DNA of 60,460 nt from the IMG/VR virus record IMGVR_UViG_3300032167_002916, one strand, 5' to 3'. Shown in pieces: positions 5,583 through 56,628 of this stretch (its first letter is position 1; the number at the start of each line of letters is the position of its first letter). The notes under the pieces were generated by a model that worked only from the letters and a program-made list of their open reading frames with translations, ran no database searches and was not told the DNA's origin. The DNA comes from a virus (Duplodnaviria; Heunggongvirae; Uroviricota; Caudoviricetes). Both the position numbers and the translations under genes were made by a program.

Positions 5583-5670
5583 GGAGAGTTGTCCGAGCGG
5601 TTTAAGGAACCGGTCTTGAAAACCGGCGAGGGTAACACCTCCGTGGGTTCGAATCCCACACTCTCCGCCA
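5583..5670 (+). tRNA. tRNA-Ser (anticodon TGA)
   Basis: Acceptor GGAGAGT/ACTCTCC-G-CCA, anticodon arm CCGGT-CT-TGA-AA-ACCGG, long variable arm, GGTTCGAATCC T-arm. Confidence 0.97.
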
Positions 5671-5685
5671 TACTAATTTGAAAGG

Positions 5686-5994
5686 TTGAAAATAATGTTT
5701 GACAATAAGTTAGTAGAATGGGCATCGAATATTTTAGATTTTGTTTTTGGTATAGTCGGAGACATTATCTCGTTTGGTGTAACCATTGGGTTGCTGTATG
5801 CAACCTTTTATCTAGTCGGTAAATACTTAGTCTGCCAAAATGATGAGGCTGAATGGTCTAAGTTTACAGGTCATATTCGGTCTGGAATCAAAGATCTAGC
5901 AGAGGCTTTCAAAAATGCGGCTCCTGCAATTAAGGCTACTGCAAAAGAGTGGGCGGATACAATTCTTGATTGCATTGAAGATATTGTAGATTAA
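5686..5994 (+). CDS. Hypothetical membrane protein
   Basis: One long hydrophobic segment; start uncertain (TTG 5686 or ATG 5695). Confidence 0.55.
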   Translation: MKIMFDNKLVEWASNILDFVFGIVGDIISFGVTIGLLYATFYLVGKYLVCQNDEAEWSKFTGHIRSGIKDLAEAFKNAAPAIKATAKEWADTILDCIEDIVD

Positions 5995-6004
5995 AGAGGT
6001 AAGT

Positions 6005-6256
6005 GTGAAAGTATATTTTTGTAATTGCTATGATGAAATGCGCCAAATCGGTGAAGTAAAAGAAGTGGGCGAGACATCCAACGAAATCTTTAAGGCAGCA
6101 ATGCAGGTTATCAATCCATTCCTTGAAGAGCGGAAGTATAAAAGCTACTACGTACGATATTGGAAAGAACCTCGGGACGGTGTTCCGATGATGAAGTTCG
6201 ATGTGGGTAGTCATTCAGAATTCTTTTACATAGATAAGCTAATGCCTGGAATGTAA
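6005..6256 (+). CDS. Hypothetical phage protein
   Basis: SD GAGGT with GTG start, tiles with neighbours. Confidence 0.6.
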   Translation: MKVYFCNCYDEMRQIGEVKEVGETSNEIFKAAMQVINPFLEERKYKSYYVRYWKEPRDGVPMMKFDVGSHSEFFYIDKLMPGM

Positions 6257-6269
6257 CGGAGGTATACAT

Positions 6270-6605
6270 ATGTTGAATTTCTGTAAGGAGTGGTCTCCAG
6301 AAGAAAACGAGCGCTTCTTGGCCGCTTGCCGCCAAAGGAAGATTGAATACTGTCAGAAATTCGGACTGCCAATTCCTGAAACATGGGACACATTGCAGGA
6401 TTATATGACAGAGAATAAGAGACTTCATGTGACAGTACAGTGCATGGCGGTATATGACAGCTATATCGATGTTCCAGCTTGCTATTCTCTGGATGACGCA
6501 ATCGAATATGCTAAAGATAATCTGCATGAGATCCCGTTGGGGCAAATGGAGTATGTTCAGGATAGTGATATCTTGGATGAAGAGAATTGTGATTTTGAGT
6601 GGTAA
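6270..6605 (+). CDS. Hypothetical phage protein
   Basis: SD GGAGGT, acidic C-terminus. Confidence 0.65.
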   Translation: MLNFCKEWSPEENERFLAACRQRKIEYCQKFGLPIPETWDTLQDYMTENKRLHVTVQCMAVYDSYIDVPACYSLDDAIEYAKDNLHEIPLGQMEYVQDSDILDEENCDFEW

Positions 6606-6615
6606 ATGAAAGGAA

Positions 6616-6921
6616 GTGTGTTCCATGATCGGTGCCGAAAATAGAGACTTCTCTTGGAGAAAAGCTTTAAGAAAGAAACGGATATCTGACCAAATCTATG
6701 GCAGATACGGTCAAGAACACAGTTACTATAGTAATTTGCATCAGTATTCCAAGAATAAGATTCACTGTTCTTGCCCCATATGTAGTCCGAAAACACGAAA
6801 TAAGGGTAGACGTGACAGAAAGAATTACGCACCGTCGCTCAATTATAAACTTTCTGATAGAAAGAGAATTGAAGCGATGGATGCGGAAATTCAAGAATTT
6901 ACAATCGAAGAACTAACATAG
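6616..6921 (+). CDS. Basic hypothetical protein with HCSCPIC motif
   Basis: K/R-rich, putative metal-binding motif; ATG 6626 is a likelier start. Confidence 0.6.
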   Translation: MCSMIGAENRDFSWRKALRKKRISDQIYGRYGQEHSYYSNLHQYSKNKIHCSCPICSPKTRNKGRRDRKNYAPSLNYKLSDRKRIEAMDAEIQEFTIEELT

Positions 6922-6929
6922 TAATAGAT

Positions 6930-7014
6930 GCGGGCATGGTGGAATCGGTAGACTCTGGGGATTTAGGTTCCCCTGTCGAGAGGCGTGCGGGTTCGAGTCC
7001 CGCTGCCCGCACCA
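6930..7014 (+). tRNA. tRNA-Leu (anticodon TAG)
   Basis: Acceptor GCGGGCA/TGCCCGC-A-CCA, anticodon arm GGGGA-TT-TAG-GT-TCCCC, variable arm, GGTTCGAGTCC. Confidence 0.96.
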
Positions 7015-7031
7015 CTATGAAAAGGAGATAC

Positions 7032-7559
7032 ATGCCAGAAATTTGGAAAAGATTATCGTATCCGGGACTCTGTGATGAAGATAACCGATTTGAAGTTAGT
7101 TCGCATGGTCGCCTAAGAAACAGGCTCACAGGACATATATATAGTCCATCTGTGCTCAGTAGTGGCTATTTATGTGTACGAACTTCTTTGGGTAGCAGGG
7201 CAAAAAGAATCAACATTATAATTCATAAGGCAGTTGCACATACATTTATTGATAATCCAAATGATTACCCGGAAGTTAACCACATCAACGGGAACAAACG
7301 GAATAATGAAGTTGACAACTTAGAATGGTGTACACGCCAAGATAATGAGATTCACAAATATGCATGCGGCCTTATAGATATAGAATTGTTAAAAGGCGAA
7401 AACGCAAGTTCTGCGAAACTATCGTGGGATGCTGTGCATGACATCAGAGAGAACTGTATTTTAGGATCACACACCAATGGAATACGGTCGTTTGCAAGAA
7501 AATATGGTGTGTGCAGAAAAACTATTGAGTCAGTTATACATAATAAAACATGGAAATAA
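7032..7559 (+). CDS. NUMOD4-type HNH homing endonuclease
   Basis: MPEIWK..YEVSSHGR N-terminus, IHKAVAHTF, VNHINGNKRNNEVDNLEWCT; SD AAGGAG at 7022 places the start after the tRNA. Confidence 0.88.
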   Translation: MPEIWKRLSYPGLCDEDNRFEVSSHGRLRNRLTGHIYSPSVLSSGYLCVRTSLGSRAKRINIIIHKAVAHTFIDNPNDYPEVNHINGNKRNNEVDNLEWCTRQDNEIHKYACGLIDIELLKGENASSAKLSWDAVHDIRENCILGSHTNGIRSFARKYGVCRKTIESVIHNKTWK

Positions 7560-7572
7560 TTGACTTAACCAC

Positions 7573-7662
7573 GGAGGATTGCCCGAGTGGCTTAAGGGAA
7601 CAGCCTCGAAAGCTGTCGACGGGTCCGCCCGTCCGTAGGTTCGACTCCTACATCCTCCGCCA
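7573..7662 (+). tRNA. tRNA-Ser (anticodon CGA)
   Basis: Acceptor GGAGGAT/ATCCTCC-G-CCA, anticodon arm ACAGC-CT-CGA-AA-GCTGT, long variable arm. Confidence 0.96.
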
Positions 7663-7667
7663 AATAT

Positions 7668-7745
7668 CCGGGCTTAGCGAAGTTTGGTCATCGCGCCTGA
7701 TTTGGGATCAGGAGGCCGGGGGTTCGAATCCCCCAGCTCGGACCA
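7668..7745 (+). tRNA. tRNA-Pro (anticodon TGG)
   Basis: Acceptor CCGGGCT/AGCTCGG-A-CCA, anticodon arm CCTGA-TT-TGG-GA-TCAGG, GGTTCGAATCC. Confidence 0.96.
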
Positions 7746-17960: not shown

Positions 17961-18770
17961 ATGAGTCATTTTACAGTTGCAGTTTTTAGTAATAAAGATG
18001 GCAGTAGCGTAGAAGAGCTGCTTGCAAAATACGATGAAAATATCGTAGTCGAACCATATGTTGAGTATACGAGGGAGCAGTTAATCGCCAAAGAGCGCAA
18101 AGATATGTTGGATTATCAGGCCGGTACATATGCAGAGTACCTAAGAAATCCGGAAGAATATCTCGAAAGATACTGTCGCGGTGATCGAGAAAATCAGCAC
18201 TATAAGTATCTGAGCGAAGAATTCCCTAAACGCCTGGATTGGTCTGATGGCGAGCTATATTTACACGGCATTCGATATTATGAAGCAGATCGGATCGGTG
18301 AAAATGGCGAGGTCTATTCAACTTACAATCCCGATTCCAAATGGGACTGGTATGTGGTCGGCGGTAGATTCTCTGGTATGCTTTTAAGAAAGTCAACCAA
18401 TAGCGCTGAGTCTGATTGGGTCGACGAAGCATTCGCTGCGGATATTGACTTTGAAAAGATGCGGCGTGAAGCAAAAAAAGAGTTAACTCCATATAATGAG
18501 TATCTCGAAAACAGCTTCTATTCTAAAGAATATTTGTTGAGGAGATACCCCGATGAAGCGACTTATGAGAAGAGAATGACAAACTTCTCAACCTATGCAG
18601 TTGTAACACCAGACGGAAAATGGCACGCTCCCGGTGAAATGGGTTGGTTTGGCTGCAGTACCGAATCAGATGATGAAGATGCGGTATGGCATGATACCTA
18701 TTACGAAAGATTTATTAAGCCGGCAATCGAGAATGGTTGGTACCTCACTATTGTAGATTGCCATATCTAA
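17961..18770 (+). CDS. Conserved hypothetical phage protein
   Basis: MSHFTVAV start, YNPDSKWDWYVVGGRFSG, AVVTPDGKWH..GEMGWFG, VDCHI end. Confidence 0.8.
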   Translation: MSHFTVAVFSNKDGSSVEELLAKYDENIVVEPYVEYTREQLIAKERKDMLDYQAGTYAEYLRNPEEYLERYCRGDRENQHYKYLSEEFPKRLDWSDGELYLHGIRYYEADRIGENGEVYSTYNPDSKWDWYVVGGRFSGMLLRKSTNSAESDWVDEAFAADIDFEKMRREAKKELTPYNEYLENSFYSKEYLLRRYPDEATYEKRMTNFSTYAVVTPDGKWHAPGEMGWFGCSTESDDEDAVWHDTYYERFIKPAIENGWYLTIVDCHI

Positions 18771-19160
18771 AACAAGTGCCCGATTGAGATAACATATCAC
18801 GGCTGTAAGAGGCGGTCGGATTCCAAGGTGGCGTGCGTGAAGCATGACCGGGCGATAAAGAAACGGCGGTTAGGTGGGTTGTAACACCGAAGTGTAGCTC
18901 TGAAATATGCGCAGGACTTAGCCGCACACAGATGGTAACACTGACTGATTTTACGGAATCAGCGTGAAGGTGCAACGGGTTTGGATACAGTAGGCGTAAC
19001 GCCGTTTGCCTTGTCATATGACAAGTATCCCCGATAATCCAAACCGAAATACCTTGGTAGGATAAGATGGGAAACACTAACACCCCTGCTCTCCGATAGA
19101 CAAGCTGAATTATCGTCATGCGTAAAGGCAATGGGTGAGGCTGAGAGTGGAGTCTCTTGT
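18771..19160 (+). ncRNA. Putative large structured RNA of unknown family
   Basis: ~410-nt intergenic gap with several helices: 18866-75/18916-25, 18945-50/18957-62, 18978-86/19037-45, 18823-29/19051-57, palindrome 19010-25. Confidence 0.65.
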
Positions 19161-19181
19161 ACAACAAAAGGTGGTGCAATA

Positions 19182-19667
19182 ATGATAGATCTGGGAAATT
19201 GTTATTTCTGTTGTGATGAATGCCCAATTATTGAAGGGTTAGATCATCGCTTGAAGTTAGCAGAAGAATACGGTGAGTTGCAGCTCGAATATTGTGGATG
19301 CGATAAGACCGAGTATGAGTTTTTCCTTGGTGGTTATTGTACAGATGCCTACTTACCTAAAGAGAAACGCAAACGTCGTGGTCAACGAAAGACCGGCAGT
19401 GCTTATCGAAGACAAATGAAAAAGCAAAAGTTTGAACGTGCTAAAAAGATTGCAACTAGAACATATAATCCAGCTGCAGGCTATGTTGATTGGGAATACG
19501 TAAATGGGGAACTGATTCCGGTTGGGAAATATTTGAAATACCCGAAGAATTCTAATAAGCAACAGTACTTCAAACGTTACTCGAATAAAATAGTACGCCG
19601 GACTAGCTTACCATTAAAGGGTAATGCTTACCGGCGTTGTTTTGATTATTGGTGGACAATGTATTGA
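19182..19667 (+). CDS. Cys-rich, basic hypothetical protein
   Basis: SD AAGGTGG supports ATG 19182; N-terminal Cys cluster, K/R-rich middle. Confidence 0.65.
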   Translation: MIDLGNCYFCCDECPIIEGLDHRLKLAEEYGELQLEYCGCDKTEYEFFLGGYCTDAYLPKEKRKRRGQRKTGSAYRRQMKKQKFERAKKIATRTYNPAAGYVDWEYVNGELIPVGKYLKYPKNSNKQQYFKRYSNKIVRRTSLPLKGNAYRRCFDYWWTMY

Positions 19668-24544: not shown

Positions 24545-24559
24545 TCCAGGAGGAACAAA

Positions 24560-24760
24560 ATCACGGATAAGAAGTGTTGTAATTTATGTGGACTCGAATT
24601 AGATATTTGGGATTTGCACGAAGATCTGTCAATTGACAAAGAGAGACTGGGGTACGGAACCGCTTATGATGGTGATTCCGTACACCTCAGATTTTGCTGC
24701 AGCTGCTTCAATAAATTAGTGGAGTCATGTAAGATAACACCAATCATTGAGCGCTGGTAA
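24560..24760 (+). CDS. 66-aa zinc-finger protein with non-canonical ATC start (absent from ORF track)
   Basis: SD AGGAGG 6 nt before ATC; (M)TDKKCCNLCG...LGYGTAYDGD..LRFCCSCFNKLVESCKITPI. Confidence 0.6.
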   Translation: MTDKKCCNLCGLELDIWDLHEDLSIDKERLGYGTAYDGDSVHLRFCCSCFNKLVESCKITPIIERW

Positions 24761-24786
24761 ATGAAATTGTAAATTATTTAATAGGC

Positions 24787-24815
24787 TTGACACAACACAT
24801 GTAGTTTGATATACT
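24787..24815 (+). promoter_or_regulatory. sigmaA/sigma70-type promoter
   Basis: TTGACA-17 bp-TATACT upstream of the mazF-like gene. Confidence 0.85.
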
Positions 24816-24863
24816 TTCTTCAGAAGATACATATTTTTAGGCTGACGAAAGGAGCTGACATTT

Positions 24864-54343: not shown

Positions 54344-55078
54344 TCAAGCTCCTATCTGCTCCATAATTGTCTTGAATACATCAGTCATATACTCTTCTGG
54401 GATAGGCATGCCATACTCAACTGCCATAATCTCGTCAACAGTGTCCATAGACTGAATGTAGACTCTTAGGTTATTGAAATAGGACTCCTGATAAATCTTC
54501 CACTGAGTCGCCGTACTAGCCACAAGCTGGAAATCTTCTGCCGAGAAGTAACGACACTCTTCGCCATCAGCGTGGTAAGGAACCGCCTCTGCGCCCGACA
54601 GGATCAATGACTGCAAAGACATCAGGTTCAACTGATCTTCCAGCTTCAGGGAGAAGTGGTACTTTACGCCATCAGAAAGAACAACATCGATACCGTTCGT
54701 TATGACTTCACCACAAGTGGCACTCATCTTTTTAATGATAGTCTCCCGAACAAACTCAACGGTTGCATTAGCAGGTATTTCAGGATCTTCCTCGGGCTGA
54801 ATAACCGGTCCTGCGATATCTAAAGCCTTCACGAGGGCTTCATATTCAGTTTCATTGATGTACTCGATGGTCACGATACCAGCAGTGGTGACATTATCTG
54901 GGAACAGATGCCATCCTTCGACCTGATAAATTTCACCAGTACGTTCAGACACAATGCCGTTGGGCTTGTCCTTGGAACCGCATCTCAGAACCAGGCCGGA
55001 TCGCTTGTCGTACTTACAATATCTTAACTCTTTATAAGCATCGATAATTTGTCCATTAAGGACTATTTGTGCAAACAT
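54344..55078 (-). CDS. Tail-associated protein with DUF4376-like C-terminus
   Basis: HFSLKLEDQLNL, YHADGEECRYFS..F; SD GGAGGG supports ATG 55078. Confidence 0.7.
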   Translation of the reverse strand: MFAQIVLNGQIIDAYKELRYCKYDKRSGLVLRCGSKDKPNGIVSERTGEIYQVEGWHLFPDNVTTAGIVTIEYINETEYEALVKALDIAGPVIQPEEDPEIPANATVEFVRETIIKKMSATCGEVITNGIDVVLSDGVKYHFSLKLEDQLNLMSLQSLILSGAEAVPYHADGEECRYFSAEDFQLVASTATQWKIYQESYFNNLRVYIQSMDTVDEIMAVEYGMPIPEEYMTDVFKTIMEQIGA

Positions 55079-56207
55079 TATATTCCCTCCAATCTGAGTT
55101 AAATAGTTCACCAAACAGCTTCTCCATGTTCTTTATCGTGTGCCATGCATTAAAGTTCGACGCATACGCCTTCCAACTTTGCCAACTGGAATACGCATCC
55201 ATCATTGTCATCTTGCCGGTTGCGATAAGCTCTTTGAATTTCTTAATCTTTTTGCGCTGTTTAGTTACGGATCTACGATAGATTTTGCGAACGATCTTGC
55301 CAGAGGGCAGCAAGAAGAATCGCACCTTCAGCCAAGTAAAGCCGTGCGATAGTTTAACAATTTGAGTCTTCTTTTCGTTCAACTTAATATCGAGTCTTCT
55401 GCAAAGAATCTTGATAGCCTGCATACACTTTTGCAGATGTTCTTTGCTGTGGTGGATTAAATATCCATCGTCCATGTATCGTCCATATCCGCGAATCTGA
55501 GCCTTCTCCTTGATATAGTGGTCGAGACGGTTTGCAGACGCCAAGGCGAGAACCTGGCTGATCTGACTTCCGAGTCCCATTCCTACGTCGCCGAAAGCAT
55601 CGATAAAGTGTTCCATAATGGCAATGAGACGCTCGTCAGTGAACTCTTTATGAAGGATTGCCTTTACAAGCTTGTGAGATACTCTATCAAAGAACTTGCT
55701 AAAATCGAATAGGAGGATATAGCCTTCTGTGCCATGCTTACGGTAGTGCTCACGGAGGTGCTGGCAGATACGATTGATAGCAAACGTATATCCCTTATTC
55801 TCCATACTTGCACCATTATCATAAATAAAGGTACGTCCTACCATGGGAACAAGAGCGTAATCGCACAGACAACGCTGCACAACTCTTTCTCCAATAGTAA
55901 CAGATTTGATGTGTCGTTTCTTTCCTCGCTCATAAACGTCGAACTCAATAAAGCCTTTCGTTCTGTATCTGCCGTCCATGAGTTGGTCATAAGTGTGACG
56001 AACATTTAATGGTGCATTGGTGATATACCGCTGCACACTGGCTTTCCAGCCAACGTTACGGCGGCACTTCTTATAAGCTTCGTACAGGTGACGGTACGAA
56101 AATACTTGTTCGTAGTCATCATACTTCGCACAGAGTTCACGCTTGTGAGCGGCTCTCTTTGCCACTCTGCGTTGAAACCTGGCTTCTCTACGTTCTTCAC
56201 TTGTCAT
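55056..56207 (-). CDS. DGR reverse transcriptase
   Basis: KKRHI, ERVVQR, FDFSKFFD, GLGSQISQ, YGRYMDD, K.NEKKT; adjacent TR and avd. Confidence 0.96.
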   Translation of the reverse strand: MTSEERREARFQRRVAKRAAHKRELCAKYDDYEQVFSYRHLYEAYKKCRRNVGWKASVQRYITNAPLNVRHTYDQLMDGRYRTKGFIEFDVYERGKKRHIKSVTIGERVVQRCLCDYALVPMVGRTFIYDNGASMENKGYTFAINRICQHLREHYRKHGTEGYILLFDFSKFFDRVSHKLVKAILHKEFTDERLIAIMEHFIDAFGDVGMGLGSQISQVLALASANRLDHYIKEKAQIRGYGRYMDDGYLIHHSKEHLQKCMQAIKILCRRLDIKLNEKKTQIVKLSHGFTWLKVRFFLLPSGKIVRKIYRRSVTKQRKKIKKFKELIATGKMTMMDAYSSWQSWKAYASNFNAWHTIKNMEKLFGELFNSDWREYNVCTNSP

Positions 56208-56628
56208 ACCGTCACCTTCTTTCTTTTAGAATTGTCCCGTACAGCGATTTGGACGGTTACAGTAGCTGCATAAGACCACCAGCCATGAAACAGAGGATTC
56301 ACCGTCAACCTCTGCCATGCAAGCAGCGTCCGGCTGGGTCTATCGGAAATCGGACACTTTTAATCCGACTGTGGGTATCCACGACAAATATTTACCCATA
56401 CGGGAGGGCCATGCACTCCTTCTCTCCACCATGCACTGATTTCGCCTATATCTGGTTACTTTGTCTGACACGAGAGGAGCCGGGGGCGACGCCATTGTTG
56501 TTGTTGGCGTTGTTGTTGTTGGAGTTGCCGTTGTTGTTGACATTGTTGAAGTTAGTGGAAGAGCCGCTCGCGGGCGAACGCAACCACCAGTTAGAAGCAA
56601 CGAATTTTACAGCGCATAGCCCATATGA
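56208..56628 (-). ncRNA. DGR template RNA region (TR plus structured spacer between avd and RT)
   Basis: Contains the TR and hairpins such as TCGGA/TCCGA and CAGAGG/CCTCTG upstream of the RT start. Confidence 0.7.
56478..56599 (-). repeat. DGR template repeat (TR), 122 bp
   Basis: 16 AAY codons, 34 adenines on the sense strand; aligns ungapped to 57230-57351. Confidence 0.97.

What the first reader, a model, noticed from the sequence alone, without database searches (positions are those of the whole stretch)
18771..19160. Unassigned ~390-nt ornate RNA in an otherwise gap-free gene array
Seen: the largest gap in the + strand block, GC-richer than its neighbours. Helices: GCGGTTAGGT/ACTTAGCCGC (18866-75/18916-25); CTGATT-tTACGg-AATCAG (18945-62); GGTTTGGAT/ATCCAAACC (18978-86/19037-45) enclosing GGCG/CGCC and a perfect 16-bp palindrome CTTGTCATATGACAAG (19010-25); an alternative GGATAC/GTATCC pairing; CACCC/GGGTG; terminal ACAAG/CTTGT. 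The long-range CCAAGGT/ACCTTGG pair (18823-29/19051-57) crosses CGGTC/GACCG, suggesting a pseudoknot. A GATGG-(TAA/GAAA)-CACT motif occurs twice (18931, 19066). I could not match it to tmRNA, RNase P or group I/II cores. Inference: a large phage ncRNA, either new or a divergent member of a known large-RNA class.
Basis: partly seen in the sequence, partly recalled or inferred. Interest (0 to 1): 0.75.

Follow-up and report, generated by a model that had tools for sequence, protein, structure and literature searches.

The report
New pseudoknotted RNA of phage tRNA-repair modules
The 400-base gap encodes a real, intricately folded RNA from a conserved family that is absent from Rfam, found in gut Clostridia phages inside tRNA gene arrays or beside RNA-repair genes; its job is unknown but probably concerns keeping tRNAs working during infection.

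Summary
The gap is real: window 18771-19181, with no credible gene on either strand and a higher GC content than its neighbours. It encodes a roughly 395-nt RNA on the + strand (18773-19169).

No Rfam 15 family matches it, and single-sequence folding is not significant (z = -0.54). Three motif scans of IMG/VR and one of GTDB genomes recovered about 60 homologous loci, of which about 40 are distinct sequences of 270-490 nt.

On 33 distinct sequences, a 54-pair core forms standard pairs in 96% of cells, against 33-45% when the partners are slid. Thirty pairs change on both sides.

There is no codon periodicity, and the indels shift the frame.

In many phages the RNA sits flush between tRNA genes. 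In the others it lies beside genes that heal, seal or extend RNA ends: Rnl1, Rnl2-like or RtcB ligases, Pnkp-like kinase, RlaP plus CCA-adding enzyme, SPFH and Thg1-like proteins. It is therefore a trans-acting RNA tied to phage tRNA maintenance. The exact mechanism is inferred only.

I found no published description. Earlier agents of this scan had already met the same family on other DNA (e1-5384516, e1-5384521).

The parts
18773..19169 (+). RNA gene, about 395 nt, a member of the new family
   Evidence: The profile HMM of the family matches 18776-19168 at E = 7.5e-72, and this is the only copy in the window. The ends are set by analogy with members that lie flush between tRNA genes.
18777..18854 (+). 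P1 (18777-82 with 18849-54), which closes the 5' domain
   Evidence: 96.5% paired, with C-G to U-A swaps.
18786..18795 (+). Near-invariant unpaired block GAGAUAACAU
   Evidence: Nine of its ten positions are invariant and the tenth is 90% or more conserved across the 33 sequences of A3.
18800..18818 (+). P2 hairpin (18800-04 with 18814-18); its loop carries the 5' strand of pseudoknot A
   Evidence: 100% paired.
18807..18813 (+). Pseudoknot A, 5' strand AAGAGGC, pairs with 19152-19158
   Evidence: 100% paired, with 4 of 7 pairs changed on both sides.
18823..18830 (+).
   Evidence: 96.6-98.6% paired. The variants CGUUGG/CCAACG, CUGAGG/CCUCAG, CUAAGG/CCUUAG and CCAGGG/CCCUGG are all compensated.
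18831..18848 (+). P3, a hairpin of variable length
   Evidence: Its length ranges from about 12 nt to over 100 nt among members. Changes between the window and its sister keep the pairing.
18866..18925 (+). P4 (18866-72 with 18919-25), enclosing P4a and an inner hairpin
   Evidence: RNAalifold on 8 subfamily members; P4 is kept but hardly varies.
18873..18888 (+). P4a hairpin (18873-76 with 18885-88); loop bases 18878-83 (GUUGUA) form pseudoknot B with 19160-65
   Evidence: P4a has 3 pairs with changes on both sides. Pseudoknot B is 100% paired on A1, with 4 of 6 pairs changed on both sides.
18945..18962 (+). P5 hairpin (CUGAUU/AAUCAG)
   Evidence: A hairpin sits at this place in the subfamily with a different sequence. 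Compensated changes separate the window from its sister.
18978..19045 (+). P6 (18978-86 with 19037-45), expanded here by a lineage-specific insertion (18987-19036) that holds GGCG/CGCC (18993-96/19000-03) and the palindrome 19010-25
   Evidence: The P6 stem covaries. The insertion occurs only in the window and its sister phage.
19050..19057 (+). Long-range helix, 3' strand, preceded by the conserved GAAAUA
19066..19085 (+). Near-invariant block GAUGGGAAACAC with a possible GGG/CCC hairpin (19069-71 with 19083-85)
   Evidence: Nearly invariant, so the hairpin can be neither supported nor refuted by covariation.
19086..19150 (+). H7 (19086-93 with 19143-50) and H9 (19103-06 with 19139-42), enclosing H8
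   Evidence: H7 is 98% paired with 6 of 8 pairs changed on both sides. H9 is 97% paired with 2 of 4 changed.
19116..19134 (+). H8 hairpin with the invariant loop GUAAAG (19122-27)
   Evidence: 97% paired, with 4 of 6 pairs changed on both sides.
19152..19165 (+). 3' strands of pseudoknot A (19152-58) and pseudoknot B (19160-65)
19167..19184 (+). Ribosome-binding site AAAGGUGG and the ATG of the next gene (161 aa, Cys-rich); not part of the RNA core
   Evidence: A homologue of this protein lies in the RlaP/CCA/Thg1 cluster of L158.

Best explanation
Window 18773-19169 (+) encodes a member of a previously uncatalogued family of phage non-coding RNAs of about 270-490 nt.

Shown: the fold. A 5' domain is closed by P1. 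A 3' domain is built from H7, H9 and H8. A variable middle domain sits between them. Three long-range helices lock these together: pseudoknot A, the CCAAGGUG/UACCUUGG helix and pseudoknot B. The two long-range helices whose 5' strands lie inside P1 cross it; pseudoknot B crosses both of them and its own P4a hairpin. Several near-invariant unpaired blocks remain.

Shown: the company it keeps. The RNA lies either flush between tRNA genes on their strand, or next to genes that heal, seal or extend RNA ends.

Inferred: it is a stable, trans-acting RNA. Where tRNAs flank it, the tRNA-processing enzymes would release it: RNase P at its 3' end and 3'-end processing of the upstream tRNA at its 5' end.

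Inferred: it works with the phage's tRNA-repair and tRNA-maintenance machinery. The most likely role is an RNA scaffold or adaptor that brings repair enzymes and damaged tRNAs together, as Y RNAs do for Ro60. A decoy for host tRNA-cutting defences is the next most likely role.

I put about 0.95 on the RNA family and its fold, about 0.8 on the link to tRNA repair, and about 0.35 on the scaffold mechanism. The confidence given for this entry is for the statement as a whole.
For: Family: three motif scans of IMG/VR and one of GTDB genomes gave about 60 loci that the profile HMM matches at E = 1e-27 to 1e-118.

Fold: on 27 sequences, 97.7% of cells pair and 26 of 54 pairs change on both sides. On 33 sequences the figures are 96.2% and 30 of 54. 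With the partners slid, only 33-45% pair.

Not coding: there is no third-position excess, and most indels are not multiples of three.

Selection: the RNA is 95.5% identical to the sister phage, while third codon positions of the flanking genes differ by 14% and 25%.

Strand and ends: in L170/L196 the RNA fills the 347 nt between tRNA-Thr and tRNA-Tyr. In L173, L176 and L193 it ends 1-2 nt before tRNA-Lys(UUU). It is always on the tRNA strand.

Contexts:
- Rnl1 ligase plus Pnkp-like kinase/HD protein, then the RNA (L136 group).
- The RNA, then a 740-aa kinase/phosphoesterase/Rnl1 fusion (L114, L177, L185).
- SPFH, the RNA, a metallophosphatase and Rnl1 (L155, L151).
- The RNA, then SPFH, then RtcB (L183).
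- The RNA, then RlaP, CCA-adding enzyme, a Thg1-like protein and a homologue of the window's 161-aa protein (L158, L167).
- Rnl2-like ligase and GP88, then the RNA (L175 group).
- In the window: Thg1-like, PTH2, a 269-aa protein, the RNA, the 161-aa protein, GP88 and an RNA ligase.

RlaP is reported to act in tRNA repair (bioRxiv 10.64898/2025.12.29.696909).
Against: No promoter, terminator or processing site is evident around the window's copy, so its ends in a protein-coding context are unknown. The functional link rests on gene neighbourhood only. A few members lie in other places, such as between an integrase and a lysin (L180, L191) or with unannotated neighbours (L120). Internally deleted 102-nt remnants in four phage contigs show that the RNA can be lost. 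No tRNA-like module is detected inside the RNA. Many sequences come from a few phage lineages, so cell counts overstate the number of independent events.
Confidence: 0.6

Rival explanations
1. It is a self-assembling RNA-only particle like ROOL or GOLLD. Some of the covarying long-range pairs, for example the P4a loop with the 3' tail, would then form between copies and build an oligomer or cage that holds tRNAs or proteins.
For: ROOL and GOLLD are also multi-pseudoknot RNAs of phages and prophages near tRNA islands. In ROOL, a pair first read from covariation as a tertiary contact turned out to be intermolecular (PMC12286853). The context here is the same. Covariation cannot distinguish intramolecular from intermolecular pairing.
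Against: At 270-490 nt it is smaller than ROOL and GOLLD. It matches neither of their Rfam models. No conserved self-complementary loop was seen; the palindrome in the window is lineage-specific.
Confidence: 0.15
2. It is an anti-defence decoy that binds and blocks a host nuclease which cuts tRNAs, protecting the tRNA pool alongside the repair enzymes.
For: It sits in phage tRNA arrays, directly before tRNA-Tyr or tRNA-Lys(UUU), and beside Rnl1/Pnkp-type repair genes. From my own knowledge, that gene pair counters the anticodon nuclease PrrC in phage T4.
Against: No anticodon-stem-loop or tRNA mimic is detectable. The one loop that resembles an anticodon loop varies and pairs with the 3' tail.
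Confidence: 0.15
3. It is a ribozyme, for example one acting in RNA processing or ligation, whose near-invariant unpaired blocks form an active site.
For: A compact multi-pseudoknot core carries several near-invariant single-stranded blocks. This pattern is typical of large ribozymes, which I state from my own knowledge.
Against: There is no match to RNase P, group I or II introns or any self-cleaving class, even at E up to 10. Protein enzymes for each RNA-end reaction are encoded next door.
Confidence: 0.07
4. It is a cis-acting leader or riboswitch that controls the gene downstream (here the 161-aa gene at 19182).
For: In the window, and in L136, L114, L158 and L183, a co-oriented gene starts within 1-80 nt of the RNA's 3' end.
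Against: The downstream gene differs from lineage to lineage. In L155 and L151 it is on the other strand, and in at least ten lineages the RNA is followed by a tRNA and not an ORF. No conserved terminator or structure hiding the ribosome-binding site was found.
Confidence: 0.05
5. It is not an RNA gene: the region is either a protein gene (the minus ORF 18748-19227), a decayed gene, or a DNA-level site such as an operator or origin centred on the 16-bp palindrome.
For: A 159-codon ORF is open on the minus strand, and many members are open over most of their length in one frame. A perfect 16-bp palindrome lies at 19010-25.
Against: The ORF shows no codon periodicity, has frameshifting indels, and is interrupted in several members. 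It has no PHROG hit. Similar spurious minus ORFs also run across true tRNA genes. The palindrome is a single copy in the window and is absent from all members except the sister phage. Compensatory changes on one strand point to RNA.
Confidence: 0.02

Closest known systems
ROOL (Rfam RF03087) and GOLLD RNAs
   Same: They are large, multi-pseudoknot RNAs of phages and prophages, often in or near tRNA islands. Their function is unknown and no protein partner is known (PMC12286853).
   Different: There is no sequence or covariance-model similarity. This RNA is shorter, at 270-490 nt. It has a different helix plan and a marked association with RNA-ligase and end-healing genes. Whether it oligomerises is unknown.
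Bacterial Y RNAs (YrlA) with Ro60/Rsr, beside RtcB operons
   Same: Both are non-coding RNAs encoded next to RNA-repair or RNA-surveillance genes. Y RNAs act as tethers between a protein and its effector (PMC4201824).
   Different: There is no YrlA match in the RNA and no tRNA-like module. No Ro60 gene was seen in the neighbourhoods examined. The fold is much larger and pseudoknotted.
SPFH/Band-7 - tRNA-like RNA - RtcB repair systems (Burroughs and Aravind, NAR 2016; from my own knowledge, since the paper was not held)
   Same: L183 has the order RNA, SPFH, RtcB. L155 and L151 have SPFH, the RNA and Rnl1. This is the same arrangement of scaffold protein, cognate RNA and ligase.
   Different: The described partner RNA is tRNA-like, whereas this one has no detectable tRNA module. 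The profile found no copy next to eight bacterial SPFH homologues in Clostridia. Most members have no SPFH gene nearby.
Phage T4 tRNA region with small stable RNAs (species 1 and 2, rnaC/rnaD) (from my own knowledge)
   Same: Both are non-tRNA stable RNAs embedded in a phage tRNA cluster and released by tRNA-processing enzymes. T4 also carries Pnkp and Rnl1.
   Different: The T4 RNAs are much smaller and are not known to share this fold. No homologue was found among 50,697 cultured phage records.

Membership tests
The new family itself (defined here) | Core helices P1, P2, H7, H9 and H8, plus three crossing long-range helices | tested here: met
   All 54 core pairs can form in the window's copy. 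The family-wide figures are 96-98% paired.
The new family itself (defined here) | Near-invariant blocks GAGAUAACAU, GAAAUACC, GGGAAACAC, GUAAAGG and GGUGAGG | tested here: met
   All are present at 18786, 19046, 19069, 19122 and 19134. The profile HMM matches at E = 7.5e-72.
The new family itself (defined here) | Location in a phage tRNA array or beside RNA-repair genes | tested here: met
   Thg1-like, PTH2 and RNA ligase genes lie within 3 kb.
ROOL / GOLLD (Rfam) | Match to the family covariance model | tested here: not met
   No hit at the gathering score, nor at E up to 10 on 18650-19300. There is also no hit inside the RNA in nine other loci.
RNase P RNA | Covariance-model match and the conserved P4 sequence GAGGAAAGUCC | tested here: not met
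   There is no Rfam hit and the motif is absent from the sequence.
tmRNA / tRNA | Detection by ARAGORN or by the Rfam tRNA and tmRNA models | tested here: not met
   The four tRNAs of the window lie elsewhere, at 5583-7745, and there are no hits inside the RNA.
Group I / group II intron | Interrupts a gene whose exons join in frame, and matches the intron core model | tested here: not met
   The upstream 269-aa protein is full length in relatives that lack the gap. There is no intron model hit. Other members lie between tRNA genes.
Y RNA (YrlA, RF02553) | Covariance-model match, a tRNA-like domain and a neighbouring Ro60/Rsr gene | tested here: not met
   There is no hit in the RNA. No Ro60 was seen among the annotated neighbours.
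Cis-regulatory leader / riboswitch | A constant downstream gene family and an expression platform | tested here: not met
   What follows the RNA is an unrelated gene, a gene on the other strand, or a tRNA. No conserved terminator was found.

The most novel reading that the evidence does not exclude
The RNA is the dedicated RNA subunit of a phage tRNA-repair particle. Its near-invariant unpaired blocks would form a docking surface that captures damaged tRNAs, in the way RNase P and T-box RNAs grip the tRNA elbow or 3' end, and presents them to the neighbouring ligase, kinase/phosphatase, RlaP/CCA or Thg1-like enzymes. That would be a new ribonucleoprotein class for RNA repair in viruses.
Probability: 0.2. 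Interest if true: 0.9.

Novelty: new variant of a known kind. Interest (0 to 1): 0.8.

Why it matters
Large, highly structured RNAs with conserved tertiary pairing are rare. Most of those whose function is known are ribozymes or cores of ribonucleoprotein machines. This one is absent from Rfam and from the literature I could search. It has three covarying long-range helices that cross other helices, and it travels with every major type of RNA ligase and end-healing enzyme in phages of gut Clostridia.

It offers a concrete handle on two open questions. One is what the non-tRNA RNAs in phage tRNA islands do, which is still unknown for ROOL and GOLLD. The other is whether viral tRNA repair uses RNA cofactors.

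Its modest size, clear domain plan and many natural variants make it well suited to structure determination and to pull-downs.

Tried and rejected
- Rfam gave nothing for the region at the gathering score or at E up to 10, and nothing inside the RNA in nine other loci.
- blastn against 50,697 cultured phage records found no homologue, only chance 19-29 nt matches inside protein genes.
- Loci of the upstream 269-aa protein: 80 loci were fetched. Only the sister phage has the RNA, and relatives at 51% identity have no gap.
- The downstream 161-aa protein as a query found only the sister phage.
- The 16-mer GATGGGAAACACTAAC gave chance-level hits.
- Single-sequence folding is not significant.
- The palindrome as a repeated operator: it is a single copy in the window.
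- The minus ORF and the + frame that runs in phase from the upstream gene to the downstream gene, with 3 TAA and 1 TGA stops: both were rejected as coding or recoding.
- Promoter and terminator scans around the window's copy and in L180 found nothing convincing. In L162 a G+C-rich hairpin follows the RNA directly.
- A search of 301 genomes of the host family found only the genome already known to hold it.
- The RNA was sought next to eight bacterial SPFH homologues and not found.
- The Burroughs and Aravind 2016 paper is not held. The supplements of the phage structured-RNA catalogue (PMC10690425) are not held, so I could not check whether a fragment of this RNA is among its 8,495 unnamed candidates.
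- No covariance model was built, because the alignment exceeds the 400-column limit.

Full report
**1. The observation**

The upstream gene (17961-18770, 269 aa, PHROG 10079) ends with TAA at 18770. The next gene is listed from ATG 19131, but it has a far better start at ATG 19182, behind AAAGGTGG. The non-coding stretch is therefore 18771-19181, or 411 nt.

It is the longest stretch of the + strand block without a + ORF of 40 aa or more. It is also richer in G+C, at 0.47-0.53 against about 0.40-0.44 around it.

A single-sequence fold is no better than shuffled sequence: z = -0.54 on the + strand and +0.16 on the minus strand. The sequence alone therefore proves nothing. Rfam 15 gives no match at the gathering score or at E up to 10.

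**2. Finding relatives**

- A blastn search of cultured phage records found nothing.
- Loci fetched through the upstream protein showed one sister phage, IMGVR_UViG_3300045988_147703, with the gap 95% identical. Phages whose protein is 51% identical have no gap at all.
- Notes from earlier agents of this scan said that a roughly 330-nt pseudoknotted RNA family exists near tRNA and RNA-repair genes. They also showed that the shared words lie in the 3' part of my sequence. I treated this as a lead only.
- An exact scan of IMG/VR with a 16-mer from that part gave 56 loci, of which about 21 were true homologues by nhmmer.
- Two degenerate patterns drawn from invariant blocks added about 30 more viral loci.
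- One of those patterns also found five loci in genomes or MAGs of Oscillospiraceae and other Clostridia.

Members are 270-490 nt long. The window holds a single copy.

**3. The fold**

The alignments show conserved blocks separated by hairpins of very different length, which is the usual pattern of a structured RNA. A scan of all column pairs and then two formal counts gave the core below, in window coordinates.

| Element | Position | Note |
|---|---|---|
| P1 | 18777-82 with 18849-54 | closes the 5' domain |
| P2 | 18800-04 with 18814-18 | its loop carries the 5' strand of pseudoknot A |
| Pseudoknot A | 18807-13 with 19152-58 | long-range |
| P4a | 18873-76 with 18885-88 | its loop forms pseudoknot B |
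| Pseudoknot B | 18878-83 with 19160-65 | loop with 3' tail |
| H7 | 19086-93 with 19143-50 | 3' domain |
| H9 | 19103-06 with 19139-42 | 3' domain |
| H8 | 19116-21 with 19128-34 | invariant GUAAAG loop |

The counts were as follows.

| Alignment | Sequences | Cells paired | Pairs changed on both sides | Paired when partners slid 1-3 columns |
|---|---|---|---|---|
| A1 | 27 distinct | 97.7% | 26 of 54 | 33-43% |
| A3 | 33 distinct, less redundant | 96.2% | 30 of 54 | 33-45% |

On A1 the three long-range helices are 98.6-100% paired, with 3-4 fully compensated positions each. The two long-range helices whose 5' strands lie inside P1 cross it. Pseudoknot B crosses both of them and its own hairpin, so the topology is truly knotted.

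The strands 19139-19165 form an almost unbroken run of four 3' strands: H9, H7, pseudoknot A and pseudoknot B.

The middle domain of the window's subfamily has four parts. In this phage and its sister, P6 is extended by a 50-nt insertion that holds GGCG/CGCC and the 16-nt palindrome. Nothing can be said about that insertion from comparison.

**4. Not a protein, not a DNA site**

The minus ORF (159 codons) has no PHROG hit. Across the family there is no excess of variation at third codon positions, and most indels are not multiples of three. Several members are closed in all frames. Similar open minus frames also run over true tRNA genes next door, which I attribute to the purine-rich + strand.

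The palindrome is unique in the window and is lineage-specific.

Against the sister phage the RNA differs at 4.5% of positions. Third codon positions of the two flanking genes differ at 14% and 25%. Several of the RNA's differences are compensatory. The RNA is therefore under purifying selection over its whole length.

**5. Strand, ends and company**

In at least ten lineages the RNA lies inside an array of about 20 tRNA genes, on their strand.

- In L170/L196 it fills the 347 nt between the last base of tRNA-Thr and the first base of tRNA-Tyr.
- In L173, L176 and L193 it stops 1-2 nt before tRNA-Lys(UUU).

I infer that RNase P makes its 3' end and that 3' processing of the upstream tRNA frees its 5' end.

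Elsewhere it sits beside RNA-end enzymes:

| Arrangement | Loci |
|---|---|
| Rnl1 ligase and Pnkp-like kinase/HD protein, then the RNA | L136 group |
| The RNA, then a roughly 740-aa kinase/phosphoesterase/Rnl1 fusion | L114, L177, L185 |
| SPFH, the RNA, a metallophosphatase, Rnl1 | L155, L151 |
| The RNA, SPFH, RtcB | L183 |
| The RNA, RlaP, CCA-adding enzyme, a Thg1-like protein and a homologue of the window's 161-aa protein | L158 (L167 shows the RlaP and CCA genes) |
| Rnl2-like ligase and GP88, then the RNA | L175 group |
| Thg1-like, PTH2, 269-aa protein, the RNA, 161-aa protein, GP88, RNA ligase | the window |

Exceptions are few. In L180 and L191 the RNA lies between an integrase and a lysin, and L120 has unannotated neighbours.

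Four phage contigs carry a 102-nt internally deleted remnant at the tRNA-Lys site.

The RNA is rare in host genomes. It was found in 1 of 301 genomes of the family of one carrier, and that one is the carrier itself.

**6. How it most likely works**

Shown: a conserved knotted fold, the + strand, purifying selection, and a tight genomic tie to tRNAs and RNA repair.

Inferred: it is a stable trans-acting RNA and not a leader. What follows it is an unrelated gene, a gene on the other strand, or a tRNA.

The neighbouring enzymes all act on tRNA ends or breaks, and RlaP is reported to act in tRNA repair (bioRxiv 10.64898/2025.12.29.696909). My best guess, at about 0.35, is therefore a scaffold or adaptor RNA of the repair machinery, as Y RNAs are for Ro60 (PMC4201824). 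The other readings remain open:

- a decoy for host tRNA nucleases (0.15);
- a self-assembling particle like ROOL or GOLLD (0.15), noting that in ROOL a covarying "tertiary" pair proved to be intermolecular (PMC12286853);
- a ribozyme (0.07).

**7. Comparison and novelty**

The closest known kind is the large ornate RNAs of phage tRNA islands, ROOL and GOLLD. This RNA matches neither model and has its own architecture.

The SPFH-RNA-RtcB arrangement of L183 mirrors the system predicted by Burroughs and Aravind in 2016, which I cite from my own knowledge because the paper is not held. That system's RNA is tRNA-like, whereas this one is not, and I did not find this RNA beside bacterial SPFH homologues.

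Seven literature searches found no description. A catalogue of 8,495 unnamed phage RNA candidates (PMC10690425) could contain a fragment of it, but I could not check this.

Earlier agents of this scan met the same family on other DNA (e1-5384516, e1-5384521). The first-reader note e1-5397454 describes the L170-type member, and its quoted words TGCCC/GGGCA, GATGT/ACATC and two copies of GCGGAAGC are all in L170.

**8. Verdict**

This is a real, conserved, uncatalogued phage RNA with a well-supported pseudoknotted fold and a clear association with tRNA repair. Its mechanism is still open.

Noticed in passing
window 55056-56473 (-): An RT-2 RNA (RF03077, 126 bits, full length) lies at 56215-56473, directly upstream of a 383-aa reverse transcriptase gene (RVT_1, 55056-56207) on the same strand. 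This is an RT with its cognate structured RNA, carried by the phage.
   Followed up: partly
L186:6328-6429, L188:2079-2180, L189:1505-1606, L194:1931-2032: These are 102-nt remnants of the RNA. The 5' 57 nt are joined directly to the last 47 nt, so the whole middle is deleted. They sit at the same place before tRNA-Lys(UUU), which shows that some phages have lost the RNA.
   Followed up: partly
L158:565-4325: One cluster holds the RNA, RlaP, the CCA-adding enzyme, a Thg1-like protein (56% identical to the window's) and a homologue (54%) of the window's uncharacterised Cys-rich 161-aa protein. That small protein probably belongs to the tRNA-repair set.
   Followed up: partly
L163:1-152: The 3' part of a tmRNA (Rfam RF00023, E = 4e-10) lies at the start of a phage tRNA array that also holds the RNA.
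   Followed up: no
window 24545-24863: This is a second stretch of the + strand block (319 nt) without a + ORF of 60 aa or more. I did not examine it.
   Followed up: no
window 19006-19012 and 19125-19131: A perfect 7-bp complementarity (UUGCCUU/AAGGCAA) links the lineage-specific insertion to the invariant H8 loop region. It could be an extra tertiary contact or an alternative fold, but it cannot be tested with only two near-identical sequences.
   Followed up: partly
L162:5473-5491: An 8-bp all-G+C hairpin lies directly after the RNA's 3' tail in a member that is not followed by a tRNA. It is a possible terminator that would mark the same 3' boundary.
   Followed up: partly
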